This document shows positions 16,282 through 29,529 of a DNA stretch of 64,000 nucleotides, piece after piece. The notes below the pieces were generated by a model. The model saw only the letters and a program-made list of their open reading frames with translations, was not told the DNA's origin and searched no databases. Position 1 is the stretch's first letter, and the number at the start of each line of letters is the position of its first letter. The DNA is from Leptolyngbyaceae cyanobacterium C42_A2020_001 (lineage in GTDB: Bacteria > Cyanobacteriota > Cyanobacteriia > Leptolyngbyales > Leptolyngbyaceae), in the NCBI GenBank assembly GCA_015272515.1, contig JACYLN010000024.1:78073-142072 (forward strand), written 5' to 3'. The position numbers were made by a program, and so were the translations under genes.

Positions 16282-17174
16282 GTGATCGCCCTGCTCCCTG
16301 GCGACTGGGTTTGACCTTAGCAAGTGGGATTTTAGCAGTCTCCACTTCGGCTCCCCTGGTGCGCCTGGCAATGGCAGCGGCGATGACCCAAACGGTGAGC
16401 TTTAGTTTTGTGCTAGCCGCGTTGCGATTGAGTTTTGCGGCTGTGATGCTGCTACCTGCATGGCGTTCAGTGGCTCACAGTAAACCCACTCCCGTTGCCA
16501 TAGGCTATGCGATCGCCGCTGGTATCACTTTAGCGATCCATTTTGCCACCTGGATTACCTCCCTCACCTTTACCTCGATCGCCGCTTCTACGGCGTTGGT
16601 CACCACCAATCCCGTATGGGTAGCGCTTTTATCCTGGGTTTGGTTGGGTGAAAAACCTACCCGGCGAGTTCTGCTTGGCACCGGGATCGCGTTAATTGGT
16701 GGATTGCTGATTGGGTTGGGAGGAACCGACCCCAGCGCAACCGGAAGCCATCCGTTATTAGGCGATGGGCTGGCACTGGTTGGAGCGTGGATGGTGAGTT
16801 TGTATTTTTTGTTGGGGCGAGAGGCTCAGCGGAACGGGTTGAGTCTCAGTAGTTATGTGGCGATCGCCTACAGTGTGGCAGCGATCGCGCTGCTGCCGTT
16901 GCCGCTCCTGACTGGAACGAGCTACACAGGTTATTCCTCCGTTGTCTACGGCTACATTGTGCTAACAGCGCTACTGCCTCAAATTGTGGGGCACACCAGC
17001 TTTAACTGGGCGGTTCGCTGGATGTCACCTACTGTCGTAACGCTGGCTATTTTGTTTGAACCCGTTCTGGCAAGTTTGATGGGTTTCGTCCTATTTAAGG
17101 AAATTCCGGATGAATCGGTGTTAACAGGAGCACTCGTATTGTTAATCGGAGTTGCGATCGCTGCGATCGCGTAG
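16278..17174 (+). CDS. DMT/EamA family transporter
   Basis: About 10 transmembrane segments, LAIHFATWITSL and GHTSFNWA, EPV motif. The GTG start overlaps the DUF928 stop codon. Confidence 0.88.
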   Translation: MSDRPAPWRLGLTLASGILAVSTSAPLVRLAMAAAMTQTVSFSFVLAALRLSFAAVMLLPAWRSVAHSKPTPVAIGYAIAAGITLAIHFATWITSLTFTSIAASTALVTTNPVWVALLSWVWLGEKPTRRVLLGTGIALIGGLLIGLGGTDPSATGSHPLLGDGLALVGAWMVSLYFLLGREAQRNGLSLSSYVAIAYSVAAIALLPLPLLTGTSYTGYSSVVYGYIVLTALLPQIVGHTSFNWAVRWMSPTVVTLAILFEPVLASLMGFVLFKEIPDESVLTGALVLLIGVAIAAIA

Positions 17175-17442
17175 CTTGAAAAGTATATTTGCAGGATGTT
17201 GCAAGATACTCTAATTCTCAGAAGTCAGAGAACGAAGATCAATTTGCCGTGATAAAGATCACACAGATGACTGATCGTGATCGCTTCTACTTTCTCTGTC
17301 TCCAGACATACTTAAGGAGACTCAACTCTAGCCGAGTCATCAACAGGGAACACACGACTGCCGACAGGTTTCTCATGGAACCGTCGGTTTTTTATTGGTA
17401 GGGGCAGCACTTGTTCTCAACTTTCTGATTGAAGTTGCAAAC

Positions 17443-17518
17443 AAAAAAGGCGGGTAATAGAGGAGAAACGACCGTCAGGGTTGCGTATCCTGGAGTCGTC
17501 TTTCGTCTATTACCTGCC
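17443..17518 (-). terminator. Long hairpin followed by a U-tract on the minus strand, downstream of the nuclease gene
   Basis: 24-nt arms (17449-17472 and 17495-17518) with 4 non-Watson-Crick positions, an inner CAGGGT/ATCCTG stem, and an A6 run at 17443-17448. Confidence 0.6.
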
Positions 17519-17536
17519 TAGTTCAGCGAAAACTGG

Positions 17537-18331
17537 TTATGCCAAATTTAGAGCTAATTGAAGTTGGGGTTTGGCATTGGATTGAGGGACAGGGGTAGGG
17601 TTTGCCGTGACAGCGGGGCAGTAGCGGGCAAAGGTGCAGCGATGACACTGCTTTCCCTGTTTTGGCTCCCAGCCGCGATCGTGGCGTAATCGCACAGCCA
17701 GATCCCCAATAATTTCCTGCACTTCTTCTTGATGCTCTTGTGCTGCCCGAAACTGAACTTTTTCCCCTGTTCGCAAAAACAGCAAACTGAGATATTTCAA
17801 ACTTTGGCGATAGGTTTGTTCTAAAGCGAGGTAATACAGCCCAATCTGAATGTCGATTTCGGATGTTTCTGGCAGTTTCATTTCCCGTCCAGATTTGTAG
17901 TCAATCAACTCCAGCCCATCACTCAAAAAATCAATTCGGTCGTAGCGCCCAACAAGCGTAAACTCCAAATTTTCAACTTGCAAATACCCCTGAATTTTGC
18001 CCTCCACTGCAAGCGGTTGGTTTAACGCTGGCTCGTTGGCAATAAAACGCCAGTAGTAGCGCTCCAAAATCTCTCTTCCTTCGGCTATCTGCGTATGGCT
18101 CAAGCCATCGGTGTGGGTATCCCAGCAGCGATAAATCCACTGAATATCAGGAACAGGATAGCGGTAGTGCCAATCTCGATGACATTGAGCCAGTGCTTGA
18201 TGCAGGGCATTTCCCAAAGCCGCAGACCCATAGAATTCAGTGCTGGTTAACTTACGCTCATAGCGCAGGTAGTAAGCGTAGGGACAGCGATGATATGCCT
18301 GAAGTTTGGTCGCCGAAATTTGGTACGTCAT
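17537..18331 (-). CDS. Stand-alone PD-(D/E)XK nuclease (AddB/Cas4-like) with a putative Fe-S cluster
   Basis: ISATKLQAYHRCP, GNALHQAL, GRYDRID...LIDYKSG, QIGLY and C-terminal CHRCTFARYC. Confidence 0.85.
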   Translation of the reverse strand: MTYQISATKLQAYHRCPYAYYLRYERKLTSTEFYGSAALGNALHQALAQCHRDWHYRYPVPDIQWIYRCWDTHTDGLSHTQIAEGREILERYYWRFIANEPALNQPLAVEGKIQGYLQVENLEFTLVGRYDRIDFLSDGLELIDYKSGREMKLPETSEIDIQIGLYYLALEQTYRQSLKYLSLLFLRTGEKVQFRAAQEHQEEVQEIIGDLAVRLRHDRGWEPKQGKQCHRCTFARYCPAVTANPTPVPQSNAKPQLQLALNLA

Positions 18332-18413
18332 AACTCAGGGGAAGGGGATTAGGGTTTAGGGGTTGGGGGAGGAAGAAGAATCATGCCTTCTGCCTCCTGC
18401 CTTCGCCTTTGTT

Positions 18414-18644
18414 TTAGTTCTGTGCGATTGGGCGTTTGAATAATGCATCCAGATAAATGCGAGAAGCCTGACGATGATTCAGTTTTTCGGGTGCGGCTTC
18501 GGACTGGTTTTGCAACAAGAACAGGGAGAGAGCAGCGGTAATCACCCGATCTTGATCCCAGTCGGGGCGCATTTCTAAATAGCTTCTAAGAGACTCGTGC
18601 AGAATTTCGGGAACTTCTACCAAAAGGCTCACAGTGGTATCCAT
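18414..18644 (-). CDS. DUF2811 family small protein, copy 1
   Basis: VSLLVEVPEILHESLRSYLE...WDQDRVITAALSLFLLQN...YLDALF. Confidence 0.85.
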   Translation of the reverse strand: MDTTVSLLVEVPEILHESLRSYLEMRPDWDQDRVITAALSLFLLQNQSEAAPEKLNHRQASRIYLDALFKRPIAQN

Positions 18645-18802
18645 AGAATTTAGGCTCTGGAAAATAAATGAACTAGCAGGCGCGATCGCATCTCAACGGC
18701 AAAGCCACTGTGCCTCACAGCAAATTTGATTTCCCAAACGGCTCAAAGCCTTGTGGAATATCGTTTGTGGAGACTCAGCTAACGACTTATGTTGGTCGCA
18801 TC

Positions 18803-18831
18803 ATTCTCAGTCGAATTTCATCGCTTGTCAA
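18803..18831 (-). promoter_or_regulatory. Candidate sigma70 promoter of DUF2811 copy 1
   Basis: Minus strand reads TTGACA-17 nt-GAGAAT. A direct repeat TGTTGCGA (18832-18839 and 18842-18849) abuts the -35 element. Confidence 0.4.
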
Positions 18832-18974
18832 TGTTGCGAACTGTTGCGAGACGTTTTAGATCAAAAAAAGCTTTACGAGAGAATCGGCATTTGAGGGCAT
18901 TTTTGTTTACTTAACTTCACAAAAACTTGCTTTCAAGCGTTACGTAACCGGGAAAAATCGAAAGTCATCAAGGG

Positions 18975-19100
18975 TGTGGAAAAGTCCCATTCTGTCGTGG
19001 CGCTTGTGGAAAACAAGAAAAAAAGTGTGGAAAACGTGTGGAGAGGGTGTGGAAAAGGACAGATTTTACTGTGGAAAGAGTGTGGATTTTCTGGGGAAAA
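18975..19100. promoter_or_regulatory. Array of 8 co-oriented DnaA-box-like 9-mers (TGTGGAAAA = TTTTCCACA on the minus strand)
   Basis: Boxes start at 18975, 19005, 19026, 19037, 19048, 19070, 19081 and 19092; four are perfect TGTGGAAAA. Confidence 0.75.
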
Positions 19101-19137
19101 ACAAGGCAATTACTAATTTTTGTAAATTTCTAGAATT

Positions 19138-19214
<77 letters not shown>

Positions 19215-19363
19215 AGAAGGATTTTAGATTACAGACTAAGTAGACGAGTCAGGAGTGACCAATTCCCGATTACCAACTACCGATTACTATTGCTAATCAC
19301 TCATCATCAATCTCCAATCCCCAACTCTCACTTTCCTCACCTTCCCCATCTTCACCACCTTCC

Positions 19364-20806
19364 CTATTCTCCGTCGCTGCCTGCCTTCTGCCGCTGATAG
19401 TGTTCCTTAAAAAGCCGTTGCTGAATGCTGTGATCGACGATCGCGTCTGGGTAGCCGCAGCGATCGCGTTCAAAAGACGAGATCTTACCGGAAACCAACT
19501 CTTCAGTATCAACGCTGCGAAGTTCGGGTAGCCACTCGCGGATGTATTCTGCTTCTGGGTCAAATTTCTTTGCCTGGCTGGCTGGGTTGAAGATGCGGAG
19601 GGGTTTGGGGTCCATGCCACTGGATGTGCTCCATTGCCAGCCACCGTTGTTGGCAGAAAGGTCACCATCAATTAGCTTTTGCATGAAGTACTTTTCCCCC
19701 AAACGACCATCTACCAGCAAGTCTTTTGTGAGGAAACTGGCGACAATCATGCGGCAGCGGTTATGCATCCAGCCAATTTCGTTCATCTGGCGCATGGCTG
19801 CATCCACAATGGGGTAACCTGTTCGCCCTTCGCACCAGGCTTGAAACAAGTCATCCTGGTTTGACCAGGGAAAGTTTTTGAAGGGTTGGCGGTAGGGTCC
19901 GTCTGCCAGTTCTGGAAAGAAGAATAGGGCGTGTTGATAAAACTCCCGCCATGCCAGTTCTTGTTGCCAGGTGCGGATGCTGGCGCGGGCTTCGTCGCTG
20001 CGGGTCTGCTCCATTGCCTGGAGGGTGGCTGCCCAAACGGTACGAATCCCGATCGCGCCAAATTTTAGGGCTGCACTGAGTTGGGAGGTGCCGGGATGGG
20101 CGGGAAAGTTGCGTTGTTCTTGATAATCTGTGATGGCGCGATCGCAAAACTCGGCTAACTTCTCGGATGCGCCTGCTTCTCCGGGTTCAATGACCAGGGG
20201 TGTTGTCCGAACAAAGCCCAAATCTTTTGCGGTGGGTAATTCAATGGCTCCTGCTGCACGAGCTAATTCCTGTTCTTTCTCGGTAAGACCGCTTGCCTGG
20301 GTTAGCGTTGCAGCGGGTTTAGCTTTGGCTTTGCTGCTCCAGTTGCGCCAGAAGGGGGTGTAAACCGTGTAGGGTTGTCCTGCTCCGGTGGTAACTTCTT
20401 GGGGGGCATGGAGGAGTTGATCCCAGAAGGGACAGACTTCGATCCCCTGTTCCCGTAAAGCGGCGGCAACGGTGCGATCGCGCGCTCTGCCATACGGCTC
20501 CACATCCTGATTCAGAAAAACGGCTTTGGCATTTAGCGCCGTTGCCAGCTTCACAATTCCCTGGTCGGGCGTTGCCTGCAAAATTAACAGTTGACTGCCT
20601 ACCTCGGCGTATCGTGCTTGCAGCGCTTGCAAACAGCTAATCATATACGTAACTCGTGCCGGAGCCACATCATCTCGCTGCAAAATGTTGGGGTCGAGAC
20701 AAAACACACCCACCACTTTGGGGCTGCGCTGGCGGGCAGCGGCTAGCCCCACGTTGTCTGAAATGCGTAAGTCGCGTCGATGCCAAAATAGAATCAAATC
20801 AGCCAT
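19364..20806 (-). CDS. phrB: Deoxyribodipyrimidine photolyase (class I CPD photolyase)
   Basis: [55 protein letters not shown] and NNGGWQW. Start placed at ATG 20806. Confidence 0.93.
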
Positions 20807-20984
20807 GATCATGCCAAAAACCTGTGCTGTAGCCATCCTAATGCCTTTAAGGTAGAGGCGTTTGCGATTCTATGGCTCGGCTTTTGGGTGTAACTTGATG
20901 GCAGGTGTGGGCTTCGACGTGAGCGTCTCGACGGTGAGGCTCGACAGAACCGCTCAGCCGAACGGGTATGGGGTGTAGGGCGGT

Positions 20985-21539
20985 TTAATTGGGTTGGAGG
21001 AAGGGGCGCGCCAGCATGAAGCTACAAATGGATTTTGCGTCGGATAATTCACCGGAGTAGATGGCGCTTTCCACTTCTTGCGGAGTCATTAATACTACGC
21101 TGAGATCTTCATCAATATCTTGTTCAGGTGGGTTTTCTAGCAGTTCTAGATCCTGAGCAAGAAAGGCGTAAATAATTTCGTCGGAGTAACCTGGAGCAAC
21201 AAAGAACTCGCCTAATTTCTGCCAGCGATCGCTGCGGTAACCTGTCTCTTCTTCAATTTCGCGTTTAATAGTTTCTTCGGGGCTTTCATCCAGCTCAATG
21301 GTGCCAGCCGGAAATTCCAGGATGCGGCCCCGTGCCGTAAAGCGATATTGCCGAATCAACACTAGCTTCCCTTCTGGAGTAACTGGAACTGCCAGCGCTC
21401 CACCAGGATGGCGCACACATTCCCATTCACCTTCTGCTTTGTTGGGCAGGCGCAAGCGATTGGCTTCAAACGCAAATTTGCGACCCCGATAGAGAAACCG
21501 TTGTTTCAGCAGTTGGGGCGGTTCGGGACCAAAGGGCAT
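20985..21539 (-). CDS. NUDIX hydrolase (ADP-ribose pyrophosphatase-like)
   Basis: Nudix box EFPAGTIELDESPEETIKREIEEETG. Start placed at ATG 21539. Confidence 0.9.
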   Translation of the reverse strand: MPFGPEPPQLLKQRFLYRGRKFAFEANRLRLPNKAEGEWECVRHPGGALAVPVTPEGKLVLIRQYRFTARGRILEFPAGTIELDESPEETIKREIEEETGYRSDRWQKLGEFFVAPGYSDEIIYAFLAQDLELLENPPEQDIDEDLSVVLMTPQEVESAIYSGELSDAKSICSFMLARPFLQPN

Positions 21540-21670
21540 AGAGAAAGAGAGTAAGGGGTAAGGGGTGACGGGCGGTAAGGACAATGAAAAATTCAAAATG
21601 TAAAATTAAAAGTGGCAAAGCCGTACTGGGAAGCATTTTGAACTTCTAATTTTTAACTTTTCATTTTGAC

Positions 21671-22174
21671 CTAAGTGTGACTTACCTGCTGAACTTCTGA
21701 ACAGTCTACCGCTTGAAGCAGTTGGGCGATCGCTTTTCTGGAAGTTGGCTCTACCCAATCAGGGGCAATTTCTGCCAGGGGCACCAGCACAAAGGCGCGG
21801 TCTGCCATGCGGGGATGGGGGATTTGCAGGGTTGGTGTGTTGAGGATCAGGTCATCGAACAGCAACATATCCAGATCCAGGGTGCGCGGTCCCCAGCGTT
21901 CTCGCCGCACTCGTCCAAACTGTTTTTCTACCGCAAGCAGGGTTTCTAACAGCATGTGGGGAGGCAGGGTAGTTTGCACGATGATGCAGCCATTGAGATA
22001 GTCAGGCTGGGGTGGGCCTACGGCTTTGGTTTGATACCAGTGAGATCGCGCTTCTAAATGAATGGCGGGCGATCGCGCCAGGATAGCAACGGCTGCTTCC
22101 AGGGTGTGTAAAGAGTCGCCAAGATTGCTGCCCAGAGCGATCGCGCAACGGCTCACGGGGTCATCTGCACCCAT
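21671..22174 (-). CDS. folK: 2-amino-4-hydroxy-6-hydroxymethyldihydropteridine diphosphokinase
   Basis: IALGSNLGD, YLNG, RWGPRTLDLDML, PHPRMADRAFVLVPL. Confidence 0.96.
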   Translation of the reverse strand: MGADDPVSRCAIALGSNLGDSLHTLEAAVAILARSPAIHLEARSHWYQTKAVGPPQPDYLNGCIIVQTTLPPHMLLETLLAVEKQFGRVRRERWGPRTLDLDMLLFDDLILNTPTLQIPHPRMADRAFVLVPLAEIAPDWVEPTSRKAIAQLLQAVDCSEVQQVSHT

Positions 22175-22175
22175 G

Positions 22176-23516
22176 TCACACTTTGCTGGGACGCTGAATG
22201 ATCTGTTCTCCCACGCGGCGGCGATCGCTGGAGTTAATTTCTACAATTCGGACATAGCTGCGGGGATATTCTTCTAAGCAGGATTCCAACGCGTGCAGGG
22301 CGATCGCGCCGTCTCCATCGTAGGTGCCGTAACTGTTCCAGGAGCCAGTGCGGAAGCGGCGTTCATCCACGTGTTCAATGCCTAGACGATGCCCCTGCCT
22401 GAGAATCCGATTGGCTTGGGTCACAATGTCTGGAGTCAGGCGAGTACTGGCGGGTTGTCCGGGGTAGCTACTGGCGGGTGGAGGTGGAGCTGGATGAGAT
22501 TGCCCGTTGTTTTTCGCTGCTTCGGTTGGGGGAGCGCTTTTAGATCGGTAGGTGCGGAAAAAATCGCTGGAAGAGTCGTGGGTACTTTCCTGTTTGAGCG
22601 GAAGGGCAGAATCCGTTTCTCCCAGGCGGCGATTGTAGAGAAATTTGTTGTATTCCTGCGCCAAGCCGCTTTCCTGCACCCGTTTTTGTTCCTGCACCAT
22701 CTGGTTGCCCATTTCAATTAGGTGCGGCAGGCTGAAGTCAGGTTTTTTGAATTCGGGAGGCGCTTCTTTGCTGTTGACCACGCGCTGAGATACGCGCTCA
22801 AACCCAACGGCGTGAATAAAGTCGCGAATTTGCTCATCAAACAGGCGCGATCGCAGCGCTCCAAAAAAGTCGATCGCTTGAGTGGGGAAGGTATCAACCA
22901 ATTTTTCGATGTCAGAGTGGGCAATTTGATCCACCTGAAAAATCCCTGCCACAATGCCGATGCGATCGTCCCGACTGGGTTCCCAGTAAAACTTTTCCAT
23001 CCGCCCATCCCGCACCAGCGGTTGATACAGGGTTGAAAAATCGTTTCCAGTGACGATGATGGGGATGCGCTGAATTGGTTCTGAGTCGTAACTGCCGGGA
23101 AGCTGGACATTGGTGGGATTGTCGGCAATGTTCATCAAGGTGCCATTGACCAACTGCGTGTTGACGGTATATTGCGTGTATTGGTCTACGCGTCCGGCTC
23201 CCGCATCAATATCATTAATCATCAAGGCTGCCATCTTGCCACGCACTTTCACCAGTTCCGCTGCTTCTCGATAGCGTAGGCGAATCAGGCGGGCAGGGTC
23301 TCCCGCATCTGGGCTTTCCAGTTCCCCAGCAGACATATGCACCACGTTTATGCCCATGCGCTCAAACGCAAGTTCGCACTGAAAGGATTTGCCTTCGCCT
23401 TTACGCCCATGCACCCCCAAGATGAGCGGCACTTTCATGTTGGGTAAGTCCAGATAATTTTTGGTGATGTGGACCGCGATTTTGTCTAAAAAGCGGGGCG
23501 AAATGTAGAAACTCAT
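22176..23516 (-). CDS. rca: Rubisco activase-like AAA+ protein with a C-terminal RbcS-like (SSUL) domain
   Basis: VPLILGVHGRKGEGKSFQ, ELESPDAGDPARLIR, NDIDAG, DGRMEK, then a linker and the SSUL domain (IEHVDERRFRTGSW...EYPRSYVRIVEI). Confidence 0.92.
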   Translation of the reverse strand: MSFYISPRFLDKIAVHITKNYLDLPNMKVPLILGVHGRKGEGKSFQCELAFERMGINVVHMSAGELESPDAGDPARLIRLRYREAAELVKVRGKMAALMINDIDAGAGRVDQYTQYTVNTQLVNGTLMNIADNPTNVQLPGSYDSEPIQRIPIIVTGNDFSTLYQPLVRDGRMEKFYWEPSRDDRIGIVAGIFQVDQIAHSDIEKLVDTFPTQAIDFFGALRSRLFDEQIRDFIHAVGFERVSQRVVNSKEAPPEFKKPDFSLPHLIEMGNQMVQEQKRVQESGLAQEYNKFLYNRRLGETDSALPLKQESTHDSSSDFFRTYRSKSAPPTEAAKNNGQSHPAPPPPASSYPGQPASTRLTPDIVTQANRILRQGHRLGIEHVDERRFRTGSWNSYGTYDGDGAIALHALESCLEEYPRSYVRIVEINSSDRRRVGEQIIQRPSKV

Positions 23517-23561
23517 AATCTGTGTCGATTGCTCTCAGTCTGGATTGCTTTCAATCCATTA

Positions 23562-24446
23562 TCATTTGTCTTTCTGCACTATGGGATTGATCAAGTCGCT
23601 TAGCCCTTCACCCAACAGGGACAATCCTGTCACCATCAGAGTCATCGCCAGCCCCGGAAAGAGCGTCGTCCACCAAACATCGCCTGTGGAAAGCCCATCC
23701 AGCGCTTGCTTCAAATCGTGTCCCCATTCGGGGGTTTCTTCCGGCAAGCCCAAGCCCAAAAAACCCAACCCACCCAGAATCAGAATAGCATCGGCAATGT
23801 TGAGCGTGAGCAGCACGGGCACACTCTGCACCACGTTGAGAAATAGATAGCGCGTCATCACTCGCCAGGTGGAAGCTCCGATCGCCTGTGCCGCTTCAAC
23901 AAATAACTCATTTTTAACGCTCACGGTTTGGTTGCGAACCAGGCGAAAGTATTGGGGAATGTAAGCAATACTGAGGGCGATCGCCGCATTCAACACGCCA
24001 CGTCCCAACACAAACGCCAGCGTTACTGCAATCAGCAATGTGGGCAGCGTAAACACCGCATCCATCAAAAACACCAGTACCCGGTCTAATCTGCCGCCCA
24101 AATAACCACTCACCATTCCCAGCGGCACCCCTACCCCCAAGCTAAAAAAGGTCGCCAGGATGACCACTAGCCATGCCGCCTGACTACCAAACACGGTGCG
24201 AGAGAACACATCGTAGCCCAGCCGCGTGGTGCCAAACCAGTGCTGCCAGGACGGAGATTGCTGGGGCGGATGATCCAAAAACTCTGTGGGGTCTTGTAGC
24301 CAACCAAGATGCTGAAACAGTGGTGCCAGAAGGGCGATCGCAGCAAAAAACAGGGTGATGATTAACCCAATCCGCGTTAGCCACCCAGATAAATCCCGCT
24401 GGTTAGAAGAACGAAAAAATTGGGCGATCGGCAGGCGCAGCGTCAT
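23562..24446 (-). CDS. Peptide/nickel ABC transporter permease (DppC/OppC-like)
   Basis: HWFGTTRLGYDVFSRT and EAA motif FVEAAQAIGAS. Start placed at ATG 24446, just after the hemJ stop. Confidence 0.9.
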   Translation of the reverse strand: MTLRLPIAQFFRSSNQRDLSGWLTRIGLIITLFFAAIALLAPLFQHLGWLQDPTEFLDHPPQQSPSWQHWFGTTRLGYDVFSRTVFGSQAAWLVVILATFFSLGVGVPLGMVSGYLGGRLDRVLVFLMDAVFTLPTLLIAVTLAFVLGRGVLNAAIALSIAYIPQYFRLVRNQTVSVKNELFVEAAQAIGASTWRVMTRYLFLNVVQSVPVLLTLNIADAILILGGLGFLGLGLPEETPEWGHDLKQALDGLSTGDVWWTTLFPGLAMTLMVTGLSLLGEGLSDLINPIVQKDK

Positions 24447-24447
24447 C

Positions 24448-25056
24448 TTACCCCGGTTGAGCCGAGCTTTCAGAGCTGGCAGCATCAATCGCCGTACCCA
24501 ATTCAGATGCCATGCGCTCTTTATCCAAACGGCGCTTGCGGGCATAAAGCTGAATCGCTGCTGCCATGCCCACCACCATTGCCGCAATCAGCCAGGTTGC
24601 CGCATCGGTCGGGAAATTATTCTTAAACACTGCCAGCATCACAACCGCGACGAACAGCACGGTAGGAAATTCATTGAACCAGCGGAATTGCTGCCCGGTC
24701 ATGCGGCACTCATCAGCCGCCAGCTTTTTCATGATGCGTTTGCAGTAGTGATGATATCCCACTAGCAAGACAACAAATGCCAGTTTGATGTGCATCCAGG
24801 GTTGCTTCAAAACATCGGGTTCCGTGATTACTAGCCCGATCGCCATGGCGATCGTCAGCAGCATCGCCGGAGTCATGATGATGCTATAGAGCCGCTTCTC
24901 CATGACCTGGTATTGATTTTTCAATACAGTGCGGGCAGGTTCCGGTTGCTCATAGGCTTCGGCATGATAAACAAACAGCCGAGGTAGATAAAACATGCCC
25001 GCAAACCAACACACAATGCCGACGATGTGAAATGCTTTGAACCAATAATAAGCCAT
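24448..25056 (-). CDS. hemJ: Protoporphyrinogen IX oxidase HemJ
   Basis: WFKAFHIVGIVCWFAGMFYLPRLFVYH, MEKRLYSIIMTPAM, WMHIKL, RWFNEFPT. Confidence 0.95.
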   Translation of the reverse strand: MAYYWFKAFHIVGIVCWFAGMFYLPRLFVYHAEAYEQPEPARTVLKNQYQVMEKRLYSIIMTPAMLLTIAMAIGLVITEPDVLKQPWMHIKLAFVVLLVGYHHYCKRIMKKLAADECRMTGQQFRWFNEFPTVLFVAVVMLAVFKNNFPTDAATWLIAAMVVGMAAAIQLYARKRRLDKERMASELGTAIDAASSESSAQPG

Positions 25057-25251
25057 GTGAAACCCTCTTATAAATTGGAGATTTTTAGGATTTTAGATGG
25101 AATGAATCTGGAGAGACGGGGATGGGGTACGAGGTATAGGGTGGTATTAACCACAGGATTTGAACCTGTGCAAACCCGATCATGCCTTATTAGAGAACAC
25201 TTTGGCGAAATGTATTGAAATCTAAAATCTAAAATCTCTCATGCTTAAATC

Positions 25252-25452
25252 CTAAGCGGGCTGCTTGAACAGGCTATCGAGATAGACCTGGGCTGCATGG
25301 CGATCGCACCCCCCATTTTGCAGCAGAAACAGAGACACCGCCGCCGAAAATAAGCGGTCTTGGTCCCAATCCGCATGAGAGTCTAAGTAGCGCGAGACTG
25401 AGTCATAGAGTTCTTCAGGGATTTCTGCCAGGATGCTAACGGTAATGTTCAT
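25252..25452 (-). CDS. DUF2811 family small protein, copy 2
   Basis: MNITVSILAEIPEELYDSVSRYLD...WDQDRLFSAAVSLFLLQN...YLDSLF. True start is probably ATG 25452, not 25635. Confidence 0.85.
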   Translation of the reverse strand: MNITVSILAEIPEELYDSVSRYLDSHADWDQDRLFSAAVSLFLLQNGGCDRHAAQVYLDSLFKQPA

Positions 25453-25664
25453 GCGAACCTCTAGTGCTGAACAAGTGAACTGAACAAAATGGACTGAAAC
25501 GCTTTGCAATACACCCTGTTGAAAACCGCAGAGGTGGGTAACCGACAACGATAGAAGCTGGCTTGCAAATCGCTGCTGTTCTCCTGGTGCTGCCCTCATT
25601 ACCTGCACCTGCTGATGCGAAATCAGCCGATGCAAACACGAGCATTGCGGAGGTAAGTCGCCTC

Positions 25665-25694
25665 ATTTTGTCCAGCCCGAGGCTAAGTTGTCAA
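25665..25694 (-). promoter_or_regulatory. Candidate sigma70 promoter of DUF2811 copy 2
   Basis: Minus strand reads TTGACA-18 nt-CAAAAT. Confidence 0.35.
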
Positions 25695-25868
25695 CGGAGT
25701 GAAAATGCGTAGTGTGAGGCTGGGGGAAACACCTGCTTATGAAAGAATCGGGGTTTGAATGCGATCCCCGTTACATATCTCAATATTCTTGAAATGGTTT
25801 CTGCCTGGGACATTATGCTATCCCGATACTGCTCAAAACCCCCCGAACGTCCATTTCTCGTTCTCCCC

Positions 25869-25953
25869 TGTGGAAAACTCTTTAAAACCTGTGGAAAAAA
25901 TTGGGGAAATCTGTGGAAAGTTTGTGGAAACTCTGTGGAATGCGTGGGGAAAA
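25869..25953. promoter_or_regulatory. Second array of 7 co-oriented DnaA-box-like 9-mers
   Basis: Boxes start at 25869, 25890, 25902, 25912, 25923, 25934 and 25945; two are perfect TGTGGAAAA. Confidence 0.75.
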
Positions 25954-26068
25954 TTGAGGTAAAGGATAAGAATTGCAAAAATATTGAACACCACTAAATC
26001 TGGAAATCTTTTTTAGTAGAAAAGCTTTGACAACTTGCTTAAACCAGTCGCATGAAGATTTAATCTCT

Positions 26069-28048
26069 CTAAACCCTTGCCACGACTCCGCGACTTTCTT
26101 GAGCAAGACGATTCACGGCGCAAAGAGCATAGGTTCCGGGGGAAACGGCAAGGGTTTGTACCGTGGCTGGCAGGATGCGTTCTAGCAACCATTGGTTTCC
26201 GCTCTGGCGATACAACGTCCACGATCGCACTTCAGCCGTTGCCGGGTTCCAGGACAAAGTGCCGCTTGCAGATCTAACGCCCGTGGGGGGTGAGAGAACA
26301 GGCGCAGTTAGCCAGGGAATCACAGGAGCGAGGGTGGGTGTGCGATAGGTGACGGTGCGGAAGCGATCGCTCACCCCCTCTCGATTCTCCAAGATCGTAT
26401 TCATGCTGAAGAAGATATTGCCCAGCACTTCTGGAGCGGTAACCTGACGAGTAATTTCAATCTGACGCTCAATTTCCGCCAGTTCCCAGGCTTTCCCATC
26501 CAATTGAGCAATGTTGTTCCCGATGTAAAGGTGGCGTTGTTTGGGATTATTACTGGCCCACCAGTTGAGCAACACGGGGTAACTCTGGGCAGGTGGATCG
26601 ATGCGCCAATACAGTTGCGGTGCAAGATAATCGACCCAGCCCTGTTGCAGCCATTTCAGCGCATCGGCATAGAGCTGTTCATAGGCATCCAAGCCTTGAA
26701 TTTGCGGCGGTTGTCCGGGGCGATAAATCCCAAACGGGCTGATGCCAAACTTGACATGGGGCTTGGCGGCACGGATGCCATTGGCAAGTCGCTGAATCAG
26801 TTGATTCACATTTTCTCTACGCCAATCGCCAAGTGACAGAGTACCGCCGTTATTGCGATAAGCCTGATAGGTTTTGCTGTCGGGAAAACTCTGTCCGGCG
26901 ATGGGGTAGGGGTAAAAGTAATCGTCCAGATGAATGCCGTCCACGTCATAACGCCGCACCACATCCATAATCACGGTATAGGTGCGGTCTTGCACAATTT
27001 TTGCGCCGGGGTCCATCCAGAGTTGAGTGCCCCACTCGTAAACCACGTCTGGATTGGTGGCGGCAATGTGGGGACGCACGTTCACCGTATTGCGAGAGGT
27101 GCGGGCACGATACGGGTTAAACCAGGCATGAAGTTCAATGTTGCGTTTGTGGCACTCGGCGATCGCAAATGCCAGCGGGTCGTACAGTGGATTGGGTGCC
27201 TGCCCTTGCGTTCCCGTTAGCCAGTTGCTCCACGGGTCGCTGGATGATTGGTACAAGGCATCGCCTTCGGGACGCACCTGGAGAATCAACGCATTGAAAT
27301 TGCTGGCTTGCAGTTGCTCCAAAATCCTGATGAATTCTGCTTGCTGCTGCTGGGATGATAAACCCGCTTTGGAGGGCCAATCCTTATTCCAAACGGAAGT
27401 AATCCAGGCGGCGCGAAATTCTCGACGATGGCTGACTTGCACAGTTTGCACAGGCGACCATTGCACAATGTAGGGAGAGGCGATCGCAGGTGCCTGATTC
27501 AACGCCATCAAGCACTGGTAGACAAAGGCTGAAACTTCGGCGCGGGTGGTGGGCTGGGTGGGGCGCAGGCGGCGCAGGGCAGGATAATTCACCACAATTT
27601 GGTTAGCCGTAGCCGTGGCGATCGCGCTGCTTGCCCACGCTGGAATTTGGGCCGCATCTTCGTACACATTCGGCAGGGAAACGGTTTCTGAGGTGGTGAA
27701 ACCCAATCCACCTACCAATGACACCAACGTATGTGCCCGTGGAATTTGCTCATTCGGGCGGAACTGCTGTCCTGGGAAGCCACTTAAGAAACCTGTTTCG
27801 TATGCCCAGCGAATTGCACTAATCGCCCAAAAGTTGGCTGGTACATCTACAAACGGCACATAGGGGCGGCTTCCGGTTCGAGGGAAGGCAGTTTGCAGCA
27901 TTACAGAAAATTCTGCCCGCGTTACGCCCTGTTCTGGACGAAAGGTGCCATCGGGAAACCCACGAATGATATTGCGTTGGGCTAATCCTTCGATAAATGG
28001 GCGGGCCCAGTGAGTTTGCACATCCGAAAAACGGGCAGAAGCAACCAT
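26069..28048 (-). CDS. SLH-domain protein fused to a glycoside hydrolase-like family 10 (DUF187/YddW-like) domain
   Basis: Three SLH repeats (FSDVQTHWA...GFPDGTFRP...TRAE), then EFRAAWI, QVRPEGDA, HAWFNPYR, DGIHLDDYFYPY and PQLYW. Confidence 0.9.
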   Translation of the reverse strand: MVASARFSDVQTHWARPFIEGLAQRNIIRGFPDGTFRPEQGVTRAEFSVMLQTAFPRTGSRPYVPFVDVPANFWAISAIRWAYETGFLSGFPGQQFRPNEQIPRAHTLVSLVGGLGFTTSETVSLPNVYEDAAQIPAWASSAIATATANQIVVNYPALRRLRPTQPTTRAEVSAFVYQCLMALNQAPAIASPYIVQWSPVQTVQVSHRREFRAAWITSVWNKDWPSKAGLSSQQQQAEFIRILEQLQASNFNALILQVRPEGDALYQSSSDPWSNWLTGTQGQAPNPLYDPLAFAIAECHKRNIELHAWFNPYRARTSRNTVNVRPHIAATNPDVVYEWGTQLWMDPGAKIVQDRTYTVIMDVVRRYDVDGIHLDDYFYPYPIAGQSFPDSKTYQAYRNNGGTLSLGDWRRENVNQLIQRLANGIRAAKPHVKFGISPFGIYRPGQPPQIQGLDAYEQLYADALKWLQQGWVDYLAPQLYWRIDPPAQSYPVLLNWWASNNPKQRHLYIGNNIAQLDGKAWELAEIERQIEITRQVTAPEVLGNIFFSMNTILENREGVSDRFRTVTYRTPTLAPVIPWLTAPVLSPPTGVRSASGTLSWNPATAEVRSWTLYRQSGNQWLLERILPATVQTLAVSPGTYALCAVNRLAQESRGVVARV

Positions 28049-28190
28049 GAGTTTGCAGATGATTTTTTCCCTCCCATTAAATACCTGCCCAGTACAAATG
28101 GAGGAATGAATCTTGGTGCGTTACGCGATCGCTACAAAATCGGCGATCAACTATATTGCAAGAGAACCATTAACAATATGGAATAGCCAG

Positions 28191-28850
28191 ATGGGGTGGA
28201 AGTTTTGGTTGTCGTGGTTTTTGAGTAACAGCCTGATCATCAGTGTCAGTTTTGCCTTGCTTGGGATGTGGGAGCAGGAAAATTTTTCACCCCGTTACTT
28301 TGCTAGAAACTCTCCGAGTACAATCAGTTGCCTCATTGTTGCAATTATGCTGGGAGGAGTGCAATGGCTAATTTTGAGAGCGTACAGGGAAGACATTTGT
28401 GAATGGTGGGTGGTAACCTACACGATTGGATTCCCTCTTAGCGCCTGCGTGAGCTTAATTCTCCATGAGTTCGCCATCTTTTCGGTTTTCAATGAACAAA
28501 CTTCTGATGCAACATGGCTCAAGTTTTTAGCTGAAAGCGGTGCAATTGGCGGTTTTGTCGGTGGGTTTGTGATTGGATTTGTTCAAGGTGTCGGCTTAGA
28601 GTTTGCAGGTTGGATTCCTATTAATGCTGTTGCTTGGGCAGCAGCATGGGCTGCTGGCTTGGTGCTTGGGCGGTTATTTGATTATATTGCTGTTAATGAC
28701 TCCCTCATTTTGGGTCGTTTACCTATACAACTTGGTTTTTTAGGACTTGGATTAGGGGTTGTGAGCAGTTTCATCACTGGGTTTGGTTTGGTCTGGCTAT
28801 CATGGCAACGTCAGCATACCTCACGTGGCGGATATTCTCCTCATCGTTAG
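28191..28850 (+). CDS. Hypothetical membrane protein
   Basis: Several Gly-rich transmembrane segments (GGVQWLILR...W). The start is uncertain (TTG 28113 or ATG 28191). Confidence 0.65.
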   Translation: MGWKFWLSWFLSNSLIISVSFALLGMWEQENFSPRYFARNSPSTISCLIVAIMLGGVQWLILRAYREDICEWWVVTYTIGFPLSACVSLILHEFAIFSVFNEQTSDATWLKFLAESGAIGGFVGGFVIGFVQGVGLEFAGWIPINAVAWAAAWAAGLVLGRLFDYIAVNDSLILGRLPIQLGFLGLGLGVVSSFITGFGLVWLSWQRQHTSRGGYSPHR

Positions 28851-28902
28851 CGATCGCAGATCTTGGTAGTTTTTGTAGTGCGATCGCGATTCAGGTTGTG
28901 AA

Positions 28903-29529
28903 TTAATTTGGAGTTGTTGATGTTGAGCGATCGCATTTTTGAGCAATGATATACACATGATTTTCAGGATATTGATCGTATTCCAGGTGGCGACAGGTGC
29001 AGTGTTGCTCAGTTAAAATTTGCAGGAATGCATCCACTCCTAAGGTGCTGTAATCGAAGTCTTGACCTTGAAATGATCCTGAAATTTCACCGTTAATTGA
29101 GCCGCCGCCACAAGTAAATATCAGCACTCCACCCGGTTCAAGCGCGTTGCATAGTTTTTTTGTCACAGGCTCCTGCTGGTTGAGCGGCAGGTGGAAAGTA
29201 CTGTCCCAGGCAGAAATTAGACTGTAGGATTTTGGTGGAATCCAGCAACAAATGTCTTCTGTGTAAAAGGTAGTGCCTGGATGCTGCTCTTTGGCTAACT
29301 GGATCATTTCCCTGGAAATATCCAACCCTTCTGCCTCAAATCCATGCTGAAGCAAAACATTGATAAAACGTCCACTGCTGCCGCATCCCACATCAAGCGC
29401 TAAATACCGCTGGGCAGTAAATTGTATGGCGCGTTTTAATTGGGCAATGCCATAGGATGAATTTTGATGCTGGCTCTGCCACCATCGTGCGATTTGGTCA
29501 TATCGAGTAGCTGTATCACGCGGTTCCAT
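28903..29529 (-). CDS. Class I SAM-dependent methyltransferase
   Basis: ALDVGCGSSG, GLDISREM, ISAWDSTFHLP, LEPGGVL. Confidence 0.88.
   Translation of the reverse strand: MEPRDTATRYDQIARWWQSQHQNSSYGIAQLKRAIQFTAQRYLALDVGCGSSGRFINVLLQHGFEAEGLDISREMIQLAKEQHPGTTFYTEDICCWIPPKSYSLISAWDSTFHLPLNQQEPVTKKLCNALEPGGVLIFTCGGGSINGEISGSFQGQDFDYSTLGVDAFLQILTEQHCTCRHLEYDQYPENHVYIIAQKCDRSTSTTPN

What the first reader, a model, noticed from the sequence alone, without database searches (positions are those of the whole stretch)
25869..26030. DnaA-box-like array 2: seven boxes at ~11-bp period followed by an AT-rich segment
Seen in sequence: spacings are 21, 12, 10, 11, 11 and 11 bp. The variants TGTGGAAAG and TGGGGAAAA also occur in array 1, and both arrays end with TGGGGAAAA. 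AT-rich DNA follows up to the glycoside hydrolase stop. Independent recurrence of the same grammar argues against chance.
Basis: seen in the sequence. Interest (0 to 1): 0.65.

Follow-up and report, generated by a model that had tools for sequence, protein, structure and literature searches.

The report
Conserved non-origin DnaA-box array beside DUF2811
The seven phased DnaA boxes are real, but they are most likely not the replication origin: they are this genome's copy of a fixed DnaA-binding array found upstream of a small unknown gene (DUF2811) in most cyanobacteria, which makes it a testable candidate for what DnaA does besides starting replication.

Summary
There are seven co-oriented TGTGGAAAA-like boxes at 25869-25953 with spacings of 21, 12, 10, 11, 11 and 11 bp, followed by DNA that is 69% A+T. 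Arrays 1 and 2 are the only two true clusters of this kind in the 5.55-Mb genome, and a simulated genome never gave more than two boxes together.

The origin reading is not supported. A textbook origin lies upstream of dnaN on another contig. It has opposed DnaA boxes, a tandem box pair, CTACTACTA DnaA-trios and an AT-rich tract. Array 2 has no trios, and its box polarity puts any unwinding site on the side away from the AT-rich segment.

Each array lies about 175 bp upstream of the promoter of a DUF2811 gene. The same module occurs in 71 of 74 named cyanobacterial loci, none of them next to dnaA or dnaN. It has two consensus boxes, then weaker boxes at 11-bp spacing ending in TGGGGAAAA, then ATAAGAATTGCAAA. 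In a genome the size of that of Synechococcus elongatus, the GC-skew minimum is at dnaN and not at the module.

Most likely this is a DnaA assembly or sensing site coupled to DUF2811. DnaA binding and any output are untested. Earlier follow-ups in this scan reached the same reading on four other genomes. The literature searched holds no paper that mentions DUF2811.

The parts
25869..25877 (+). Box 1, TGTGGAAAA. It matches the cyanobacterial DnaA-box consensus exactly (reverse complement of TTTTCCACA).
   Evidence: In the consensus of 66 loci this position is TGTGGAAAAC.
25890..25898 (+). Box 2, TGTGGAAAA, 21 bp after box 1 (two helical turns).
   Evidence: The first spacing is 21 bp (occasionally 22) in most of the loci listed.
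25902..25910 (+). Extra degenerate box TGGGGAAAT inside the spacer between boxes 2 and 3. It is specific to this lineage.
   Evidence: It is absent from the orthologous array of G004 and from the consensus.
25912..25920 (+). Box 3, TGTGGAAAG. It is the first of the closely packed boxes.
   Evidence: The box 22 bp before the last box is TGTGGAAAG or TGTGGAAAC in 39 of 85 arrays.
25923..25931 (+). Box 4, TGTGGAAAC, 11 bp after box 3.
25934..25942 (+). Box 5, TGTGGAATG. The TGTGGAAT variant is conserved at this position.
   Evidence: The second-to-last box is TGTGGAATN in most arrays.
25945..25953 (+). Last box, TGGGGAAAA. This weak variant is conserved at the end of the array.
   Evidence: The last box is TGGGGAAAA in 64 of 85 arrays. 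Array 1 ends the same way.
25966..25979 (+). Conserved flanking element ATAAGAATTGCAAA, 12 nt after the last box. Its function is unknown. It could be a weak -10-like site or a protein-binding site.
   Evidence: It is conserved at a fixed distance in most pan-cyanobacterial-type arrays. The family-specific paralog modules carry TTTTGTAAA-type variants instead.
25954..26068 (.). AT-rich segment (68.7% A+T) between the array and the stop codon of the GHL10 glycoside hydrolase gene.
   Evidence: Beyond about 40 nt it is not conserved among orthologous loci.
25739..25788 (.). Conserved block between the promoter and the array (consensus ACGAaaGAAT..G.GTTT....TTTT.GTTACAT..CTT.ACAAAA). Its function is unknown.
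   Evidence: Consensus of 66 loci. It is present in both modules of the window.
25665..25694 (-). Predicted sigma-70-type promoter of the DUF2811 gene: -35 TTGACA, an 18-nt spacer, and -10 CAAAAT. The -35 hexamer lies 175 bp from box 1.
   Evidence: The paralogous site in module 1 is at 18831-18803. TTGTCAA and the -10 block are conserved in 66 loci, and the distance from -35 to box 1 is 170-199 bp in 49 of 66.
25252..25452 (-). DUF2811 gene (66 aa), the pan-cyanobacterial ortholog type. The array lies 416 bp upstream of its start codon.
   Evidence: Pfam PF10929, E = 6e-27. The tree places it with the general cyanobacterial type.
18975..19100 (+). Array 1, the paralogous array (7-8 boxes), which also ends in TGGGGAAAA.
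18414..18644 (-). Second DUF2811 gene (76 aa), the family-specific paralog, 50% identical to the first.
   Evidence: It falls in a clade with 99/95 support made up only of members of the window's own family.

Best explanation
Array 2 is this genome's copy of a pan-cyanobacterial module: a DnaA-box array at a fixed distance upstream of the promoter of a small DUF2811 gene. It is a DnaA assembly site that is not a replication origin.

Proposed mechanism:
- DnaA first occupies the two consensus boxes, which are two helical turns apart.
- ATP-bound DnaA then spreads cooperatively over the three or four weaker boxes. These are spaced 11 bp apart on the same face of the helix and end at the conserved TGGGGAAAA next to ATAAGAATTGCAAA.
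- Occupancy of the array therefore reports the level of active DnaA.
- The output is changed transcription from the DUF2811 promoter about 175 bp away, and possibly from a promoter-like site on the right flank. A side effect is that the array holds several DnaA molecules away from the origin.

Shown here: the boxes, their geometry, their conservation and linkage to DUF2811, the presence of a separate canonical origin, and the absence of origin hallmarks at the array.

Inferred: DnaA binding itself, its cooperativity, and the transcriptional output.
For: 1. The boxes match the DnaA box TTTTCCACA. That motif is bound by DnaA in S. elongatus, Anabaena and Cyanothece (PMC4674748), and it also builds this genome's dnaN-linked origin.
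2. Only two such arrays exist in the genome, one upstream of each of the only two DUF2811 genes.
3. Of 74 named cyanobacterial loci with at least 900 bp of upstream sequence, 71 have 3 or more co-oriented boxes 230-680 bp upstream of DUF2811. The spacings are 21, 22, 11, 11. Most of the loci from 30 unnamed relatives show the same.
4. The boxes are conserved while the spacers are free to vary, and specific box variants are conserved by position: consensus, consensus, AAAG/C, AATN, TGGGGAAAA. This pattern of graded affinity resembles the low-affinity, ATP-DnaA-specific sites of E. coli oriC. That comparison is from established knowledge and was not tested here.
5. The array keeps a fixed distance of 170-199 bp from a conserved -35/-10 promoter of DUF2811 in 49 of 66 loci.
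6. After an old duplication in the window's family, both paralogs kept an array.
7. A complete origin with DnaA-trios exists elsewhere in the genome. The same origin architecture is seen upstream of dnaN in five other genomes.
8. The pair TGTGGAAA-N13-TGTGGAAA occurs in 145 of 201 cyanobacterial genomes, usually at 2-4 loci. The same pattern read backwards occurs in none. Several DnaA-box loci per genome is therefore the norm.
Against:
- The array lies about 210-295 bp upstream of the predicted transcription start, which is far for a simple activator or repressor.
- One plasmid copy of the gene (pREB3 of Acaryochloris marina) has no boxes upstream, and marine picocyanobacteria keep only 2-3 boxes. 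The gene can therefore exist with a reduced array or none.
- The function of DUF2811 is unknown. The structure model had low confidence, and no significant sequence or fold match was found.
- In the genome the size of that of Thermosynechococcus elongatus BP-1, dnaN has no boxes upstream, so the module could serve as an origin in some lineages.
Confidence: 0.6

Rival explanations
1. The array is a locus that controls DnaA itself rather than a gene, in the manner of datA, DARS or a titration site. It sequesters DnaA or changes its nucleotide state, and so tunes initiation at the dnaN-linked origin. On this reading the link to DUF2811 is incidental, or DUF2811 is a cofactor.
For: - The array has 6-7 phased boxes with two strong anchor boxes.
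- The flanking elements are conserved and could bind an accessory protein.
- In complete genomes the module lies far from dnaN, 17-41% of the genome length away.
- Other box clusters in this genome lie outside promoters, for example between the convergent ends of guaA and a neighbouring gene.
Against: - The tight and ancient linkage to one gene and its promoter, at a fixed distance, is not expected for a pure titration site.
- The distance to the origin is not kept. The two modules are 6.9 kb apart here but 1.9 Mb apart in the sister genome.
- No IHF-type site was identified.
Confidence: 0.2
2. The array is a functional chromosomal replication origin, either secondary or alternative, and the neighbouring AT-rich DNA is its unwinding element.
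For: - A box cluster lies next to AT-rich DNA.
- The layout resembles the left half of E. coli oriC: a strong box, a gap, then co-oriented low-affinity boxes with 2-bp spacers (from established knowledge).
- Ori-Finder authors reported TTTTCCACA clusters next to neither dnaA nor dnaN in four cyanobacteria, including T. elongatus BP-1, and treated them as candidate origins (PMC4009838).
- The BP-1-sized genome has no boxes at dnaN.
- The sister genome G004 has no usable GC skew to argue either way.
Against: - There are no DnaA-trios on either side of the array.
- The box polarity puts the expected unwinding site on the non-AT-rich side.
- The same genome has a complete dnaN-linked origin with trios.
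- In the S. elongatus-sized genome, the cumulative GC-skew minimum is at dnaN (1.62 Mb). The module at 0.77 Mb sits in the middle of a replichore with no inflection.
- In the BP-1-sized genome, the weak skew switch is near 210 kb, while the module is at 371 kb.
- Two copies lie 6.9 kb apart here.
- Plasmid copies are not next to rep or par genes.
Confidence: 0.12
3. The repeats are bound not by DnaA but by another factor, for example the adjacent DUF2811 protein itself acting as an autoregulator on an iteron-like operator.
For: - Gene and array are strictly linked.
- The DUF2811 sequence has a strand-helix-helix pattern reminiscent of ribbon-helix-helix repressors. This is my own reading of the sequence. 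The AlphaFold2 monomer model gives a disordered N-terminus followed by three helices.
Against: - The motif is identical to the DnaA box used at the dnaN origin of the same genome.
- The two DUF2811 paralogs are only 50% identical, yet their arrays use the same box sequences.
- No DNA-binding fold was confirmed.
Confidence: 0.05

Closest known systems
Non-origin DnaA-box clusters and DnaA-regulated promoters of Bacillus subtilis (the DnaA-box clusters, and the promoters of sda, ywlC and yydA). This comes from established knowledge; the topic is cited in PMC7198777.
   Same: Both have several consensus DnaA boxes outside the origin, in an intergenic or promoter region. The sda case is the nearest analogy: a DnaA-box cluster upstream of a very small gene whose product reports replication status.
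   Different: This array has a fixed geometry (spacings of 21, 22, 11, 11, 11 bp, all boxes co-oriented), box variants conserved by position, conserved flanking elements, and one partner gene (DUF2811) kept across a whole phylum. DUF2811 is unrelated to Sda. DnaA binding and regulation are not shown here.
Cyanobacterial oriC upstream of dnaN. It was mapped experimentally in S. elongatus PCC 7942 and Anabaena PCC 7120, as cited in PMC4009838 and PMC7198777.
   Same: Both use the same TTTTCCACA box, and both have runs of co-oriented boxes at 21-22 bp spacing with AT-rich DNA nearby.
   Different: The dnaN origin has boxes in both orientations, an abutting tandem pair of boxes, a GC spacer, CTACTACTA trios and an AT-rich tract. 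Array 2 has only co-oriented boxes and no trios, and it is not next to dnaN or dnaA.
The left DnaA-oligomerisation region of E. coli oriC (R1, then R5M-tau2-I1-I2), and the datA and DARS loci (PMC10325909, PMC10380432).
   Same: Both have high-affinity anchor boxes followed by co-oriented low-affinity boxes separated by 2 bp. This layout drives cooperative assembly of ATP-DnaA.
   Different: No adjacent unwinding element lies on the side that the box polarity predicts. No IHF site was identified. No effect on the DnaA nucleotide state is known.
oriCII of Pseudomonas aeruginosa upstream of gidA (PMC13438810, from its abstract as listed).
   Same: Both are origin-like DnaA-box clusters that, on this reading, act in transcription control of a neighbouring operon rather than as the active origin.
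   Different: The organism, the partner genes and the box layout all differ, and oriCII lies next to the classical origin region.

Membership tests
Bacterial chromosomal origin with the basal unwinding system (boxes, DnaA-trios, AT-rich region) | A cluster of DnaA boxes that match the species consensus | tested here: met
   There are seven boxes, of which two are perfect and five have one or two mismatches.
Bacterial chromosomal origin with the basal unwinding system (boxes, DnaA-trios, AT-rich region) | At least three DnaA-trios (3'-NAN-5', consensus GAT) within 16 bp of a box, on the 3' side of the TTATCCACA strand (rule taken from PMC8287927) | tested here: not met
   The sequence to the left of box 1 is ...CATTTCTCGTTCTCCCC, which holds no run of trios. 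The right flank lies on the wrong side for the box polarity. The dnaN-linked site in the same genome meets the rule, with CGCT followed by CTACTACTA.
Bacterial chromosomal origin with the basal unwinding system (boxes, DnaA-trios, AT-rich region) | An AT-rich unwinding element next to the trios | tested here: inconclusive
   The right flank is 68.7% A+T, but it is on the side not predicted by the box polarity, and only its first 30-40 nt are conserved.
Bacterial chromosomal origin with the basal unwinding system (boxes, DnaA-trios, AT-rich region) | A position at the GC-skew switch and/or next to dnaA or dnaN | tested here: not met
   dnaA and dnaN are on other contigs. None of 80 related loci has dnaA or dnaN within 4 kb. 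In the S. elongatus-sized genome the skew minimum is at dnaN and not at the module. The sister genome G004 gave no usable skew.
Bacterial chromosomal origin with the basal unwinding system (boxes, DnaA-trios, AT-rich region) | Replication starts there (copy-number peak, autonomous replication) | not testable with these tools
Non-origin DnaA-box cluster or DnaA-regulated promoter | Several consensus boxes at a locus that is not the origin | tested here: met
Non-origin DnaA-box cluster or DnaA-regulated promoter | The boxes lie in the control region of a gene | tested here: met
   The array lies 175 bp upstream of a conserved -35/-10 promoter of DUF2811, and this distance is conserved. The distance is long for direct control.
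Non-origin DnaA-box cluster or DnaA-regulated promoter | DnaA occupies the site in vivo, and expression of the neighbouring gene depends on DnaA | not testable with these tools
   This needs ChIP, and RNA measurements after perturbing dnaA.
datA/DARS-type DnaA-cycle elements | An essential IHF (or Fis) site among the boxes, and an effect on the DnaA-ATP/ADP ratio | not tested
   No IHF-consensus search was run. On reading the conserved flanking element I saw no match to the IHF consensus. The biochemical effect cannot be tested here.
Plasmid iteron origin | Repeats next to a rep initiator gene on a plasmid | tested here: not met
   Both modules are chromosomal in the complete sister genome. 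The three plasmid copies examined have no annotated rep or par gene within the 6-7 kb of flanking sequence fetched.

The most novel reading that the evidence does not exclude
The array and DUF2811 together form a conserved checkpoint in cyanobacteria that senses DnaA. A filament of ATP-DnaA on the graded boxes sets the expression of the small DUF2811 protein. That protein then couples replication status to another process such as cell division, chromosome copy number or growth. This would explain why dnaA is kept even in cyanobacteria where it is dispensable for replication.
Probability: 0.3. Interest if true: 0.8.

Novelty: new variant of a known kind. Interest (0 to 1): 0.58.

Why it matters
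In several cyanobacteria (Synechocystis 6803, Anabaena 7120, Synechococcus 7002), DnaA is not needed for replication but is retained and still binds DnaA boxes. What it does there is an open question. PMC7198777 suggests transcription control but names no targets.

A box array of fixed geometry, tied to one small gene across the phylum, gives that question a concrete locus to test.

The result also warns that box-counting origin predictors can call this module an origin. PMC4009838 lists such box clusters, next to neither dnaA nor dnaN, in four cyanobacteria.

Tried and rejected
- **GC skew in the sister genome:** I sampled the complete sister genome G004 with 55 windows of 20 kb. There was no polarity, so the result is uninformative.
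- **Finer skew sampling in the BP-1-sized genome:** a weak switch appears near 210 kb, 160 kb from the module. This is inconclusive.
- **Natural experiment with dnaA-less cyanobacteria:** all 201 sampled genomes carry dnaA.
- **Rfam scan of 17000-29000:** no match.
- **DUF2811 structure:** the AlphaFold2 model had a mean pLDDT of 61. There was no significant PDB sequence match (best E = 0.36), no fold match (best E = 6.9) and no NCBIfam model. The ribbon-helix-helix idea remains unsupported.
- **Promoters on the right flank:** a leftward promoter from TTGCAA has no conserved -10. A rightward one (-10 AAGAAT, with the last box in the -35 position) is only a weak consensus match. The scan tool reported neither.
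- **Plasmid-origin idea:** three of the 21 plasmid copies were examined. None has an annotated rep or par gene in the flank fetched, and one has lost the boxes.
- **Other apparent clusters of 5 boxes (contigs C138 and C114):** these are TGGGGAA simple repeats, not DnaA boxes.

Full report
**The observation.** The region 25869-25953 holds seven co-oriented boxes: TGTGGAAAA, TGTGGAAAA, TGGGGAAAT, TGTGGAAAG, TGTGGAAAC, TGTGGAATG and TGGGGAAAA. The start-to-start spacings are 21, 12, 10, 11, 11 and 11 bp, and Tandem Repeats Finder detects the 11/22-bp period. The DNA from 25954 to the stop codon of the GHL10 glycoside hydrolase gene (26069-28048, minus strand) is 68.7% A+T, against 51.9% for the window. 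Array 1 at 18975-19100 shares the variants and the last box, TGGGGAAAA.

**Chance is excluded.** The window lies on contig C70 of a 5.55-Mb cyanobacterial assembly. Across the genome, co-oriented clusters of the loose motif reach sizes 7 and 6 only at arrays 2 and 1. The two clusters of 5 are TGGGGAA simple repeats. In 12 Mb of first-order Markov sequence, no cluster held more than 2 boxes.

**What surrounds the arrays.** Each array lies upstream of a small minus-strand gene of family DUF2811 (PF10929): 25252-25452 (66 aa) and 18414-18644 (76 aa). The two proteins are 50% identical, and these are the only two DUF2811 genes in the genome. A sigma-70-type promoter is predicted for each gene: TTGACA-18-CAAAAT at 25694-25665 and TTGACA-17-GAGAAT at 18831-18803. 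Box 1 of array 2 lies 175 bp beyond the -35 hexamer. dnaA and dnaN are on other contigs.

**The real origin is elsewhere.** A scan for pairs of boxes found a further cluster on contig C49, directly upstream of dnaN. Its sequence reads as follows:
- two rightward boxes;
- the leftward pair TTTTCCACA-CG-TTATCCACA;
- the abutting leftward pair TTTTCCACA/GTTTCCACA;
- the spacer CGCT;
- CTACTACTA;
- an AT-rich tract (TTTTAAATAAGTTTTTCTTAAG).

This matches the basal unwinding system defined in Bacillus subtilis: tandem boxes, a short GC-rich spacer, at least three DnaA-trios with consensus 3'-GAT-5', and AT-rich DNA (PMC8287927).

The same architecture lies upstream of dnaN in several other genomes:
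- the sister genome G004;
- G027, G021 and G023;
- G049. Its length of 2,696,255 bp equals, from my memory, that of Synechococcus elongatus PCC 6301. Its eleven boxes fit the eleven repeats reported for the dnaN-linked origin of S. elongatus PCC 7942 (cited in PMC4674748).

**Array 2 lacks origin hallmarks.** It has no trios on either side. In the dnaN origins the unwound DNA lies 3' of the TTTTCCACA strand.

**The module is conserved.**
- In 30 relatives, most DUF2811 genes show co-oriented boxes at the same upstream position.
- A scan of named genomes returned 80 loci from Leptolyngbya-like, Stenomitos, Acaryochloris, Thermosynechococcus, Pseudanabaena, Elainella, Microcoleus, Chroococcidiopsis and other lineages. 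None has dnaA or dnaN within 4 kb.
- Of the 74 loci with at least 900 bp of upstream sequence, 71 have 3 or more co-oriented boxes and 63 have 4 or more. The boxes lie 230-680 bp upstream of the start codon, with spacings of 21, 22, 11, 11 (and sometimes a further 11).
- The consensus of 66 loci shows conserved boxes and free spacers. The order of elements is: the -10 block, TTGTCAA (the -35 hexamer read on the opposite strand), a conserved block of unknown role, a degenerate inverted box, TGTGGAAAAC, N12, CTGTGGAAAA, N13, and then boxes separated by 2 bp.
- Anchoring 85 arrays on the last box shows variants conserved by position: TGTGGAAAG/C, then TGTGGAATN, then TGGGGAAAA (64 of 85). About 11 nt further on comes ATAAGAATTGCAAA.
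- The third box of array 2 (TGGGGAAAT) is not part of this conserved plan.
- A protein tree puts the array-1 gene in a well-supported clade (99/95) confined to the window's own family, and the array-2 gene with the general cyanobacterial type. Array 2 is therefore the ancestral ortholog, and after an old duplication both copies kept an array.

**Does the module behave as an origin elsewhere?**
- In G049, cumulative GC skew has its minimum at 1.49-1.62 Mb, where dnaN lies. The DUF2811 module at 0.77 Mb sits in the middle of a replichore with no inflection. This agrees with the experimentally mapped dnaN origin of S. elongatus (cited in PMC7198777 and PMC4009838).
- The sister genome G004 has no usable skew.
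- G058 has a length of 2,593,857 bp, which from memory is that of Thermosynechococcus elongatus BP-1. It has no boxes at dnaN, and its weak skew switch is near 210 kb while the module is at 371 kb. This is inconclusive.
- PMC4009838 reports that BP-1 and three other cyanobacteria have TTTTCCACA clusters next to neither dnaA nor dnaN and treats them as candidate origins. These may be the DUF2811 module. I could not verify this.
- 21 cyanobacterial megaplasmids carry DUF2811. Three were examined. None has an annotated rep or par gene in the flank fetched. The copy on pCC7120alpha has three boxes, the copy on pREB4 has a degenerate array, and the copy on pREB3 has none.

**Several DnaA-box loci per genome are normal.** The pair TGTGGAAA-N13-TGTGGAAA occurs in 145 of 201 sampled cyanobacterial genomes, typically at 2-4 loci. 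The same pattern read backwards occurs in none. In this genome there are also three-box clusters upstream of a group-2 sigma factor gene and between the convergent ends of guaA and a neighbouring gene.

**Interpretation.** The best-supported reading is a non-origin DnaA assembly array coupled to the DUF2811 promoter. Two consensus anchor boxes, followed by weaker boxes on the same helix face with 2-bp gaps, is the layout that drives cooperative loading of ATP-DnaA in E. coli oriC (established knowledge; PMC10325909). The fixed distance to the promoter, and the retention of an array by both paralogs, argue that the array and the gene work together.

Whether the output is transcription of DUF2811, a right-flank transcript, or control of DnaA itself cannot be decided here. 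The array is far from the predicted transcription start (about -210 to -295), which weakens a simple activator or repressor model. I give 0.6 to the non-origin DnaA array coupled to DUF2811, 0.2 to a pure DnaA-titration or DnaA-cycle element, 0.12 to a functional origin, and 0.05 to binding by another protein.

**Novelty.** No paper in the searched library mentions DUF2811, and searches for non-origin DnaA targets in cyanobacteria found none. PMC7198777 states that DnaA in replication-independent species probably regulates transcription but names no targets. Earlier follow-ups in this scan reached the same reading on four other genomes; my analysis up to one search was done before I saw them.

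- the canonical origin with trios in the same genome;
- the argument from box polarity;
- the grading of box variants by position;
- the history of the two paralogs;
- the skew check in the S. elongatus-sized genome.

Noticed in passing
G000 contig C49:15611-15830 (outside the window): This is the canonical dnaN-linked origin. It has two rightward and four leftward DnaA boxes, an abutting tandem box pair, a CGCT spacer, CTACTACTA DnaA-trios and an AT-rich tract, about 120 bp upstream of the dnaN start codon. The same layout is seen in five other cyanobacterial genomes.
   Followed up: yes
window 19131-19219: Directly after array 1 lies a tandem repeat of the heptamer AGGAGTC (10.9 copies; also scored as a 21-bp unit). 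A related AAGTCAGG word recurs about 25 nt after ATAAGAATTGCAAA in many orthologous arrays of other genomes. Its meaning is unknown.
   Followed up: partly
G000 contig C89:93250-93281 and contig C82:19998-20050 (outside the window): There are two further three-box DnaA clusters. One lies about 125-155 bp upstream of a group-2 sigma factor gene. The other lies in the 138-bp gap between the convergent ends of guaA and a 521-aa gene.
   Followed up: partly
window 21671-23516, versus G004 (L176, L177): In the complete sister genome the two DUF2811 modules are about 1.9 Mb apart, and each is about 1.7-1.9 Mb from dnaN, so the three DnaA-box loci roughly trisect the chromosome. In this genome a rearrangement at the junction between HPPK and the Rubisco-activase-like gene brings the two modules within 6.9 kb of each other.
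   Followed up: partly
window 22176-23516 (minus strand): This gene encodes a Rubisco-activase-like AAA+ protein with a C-terminal domain like the Rubisco small subunit. This is the cyanobacterial activase-like architecture.
   Followed up: no
L181 (G058:C1:2446360-2449713): This genome is the size of that of Thermosynechococcus elongatus BP-1. The region upstream of its dnaN has no DnaA boxes at all, unlike the dnaN regions of the other six genomes examined.
   Followed up: partly
L248 and L250 (Acaryochloris marina plasmids pREB3 and pREB4): The plasmid copies of DUF2811 sit near plasmid paralogs of sepF and near genes for double-stranded-RNA-binding proteins. The pREB3 copy has lost the box array.
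   Followed up: partly
window 25739-25788 and 18875-18925: A conserved block of about 50 bp (ACGAaaGAAT..GTTT..TTTT.GTTACAT..CTT.ACAAAA) lies between the DUF2811 promoter and the array in both modules and in 66 other loci. It is a candidate binding site for an unknown factor.
   Followed up: partly
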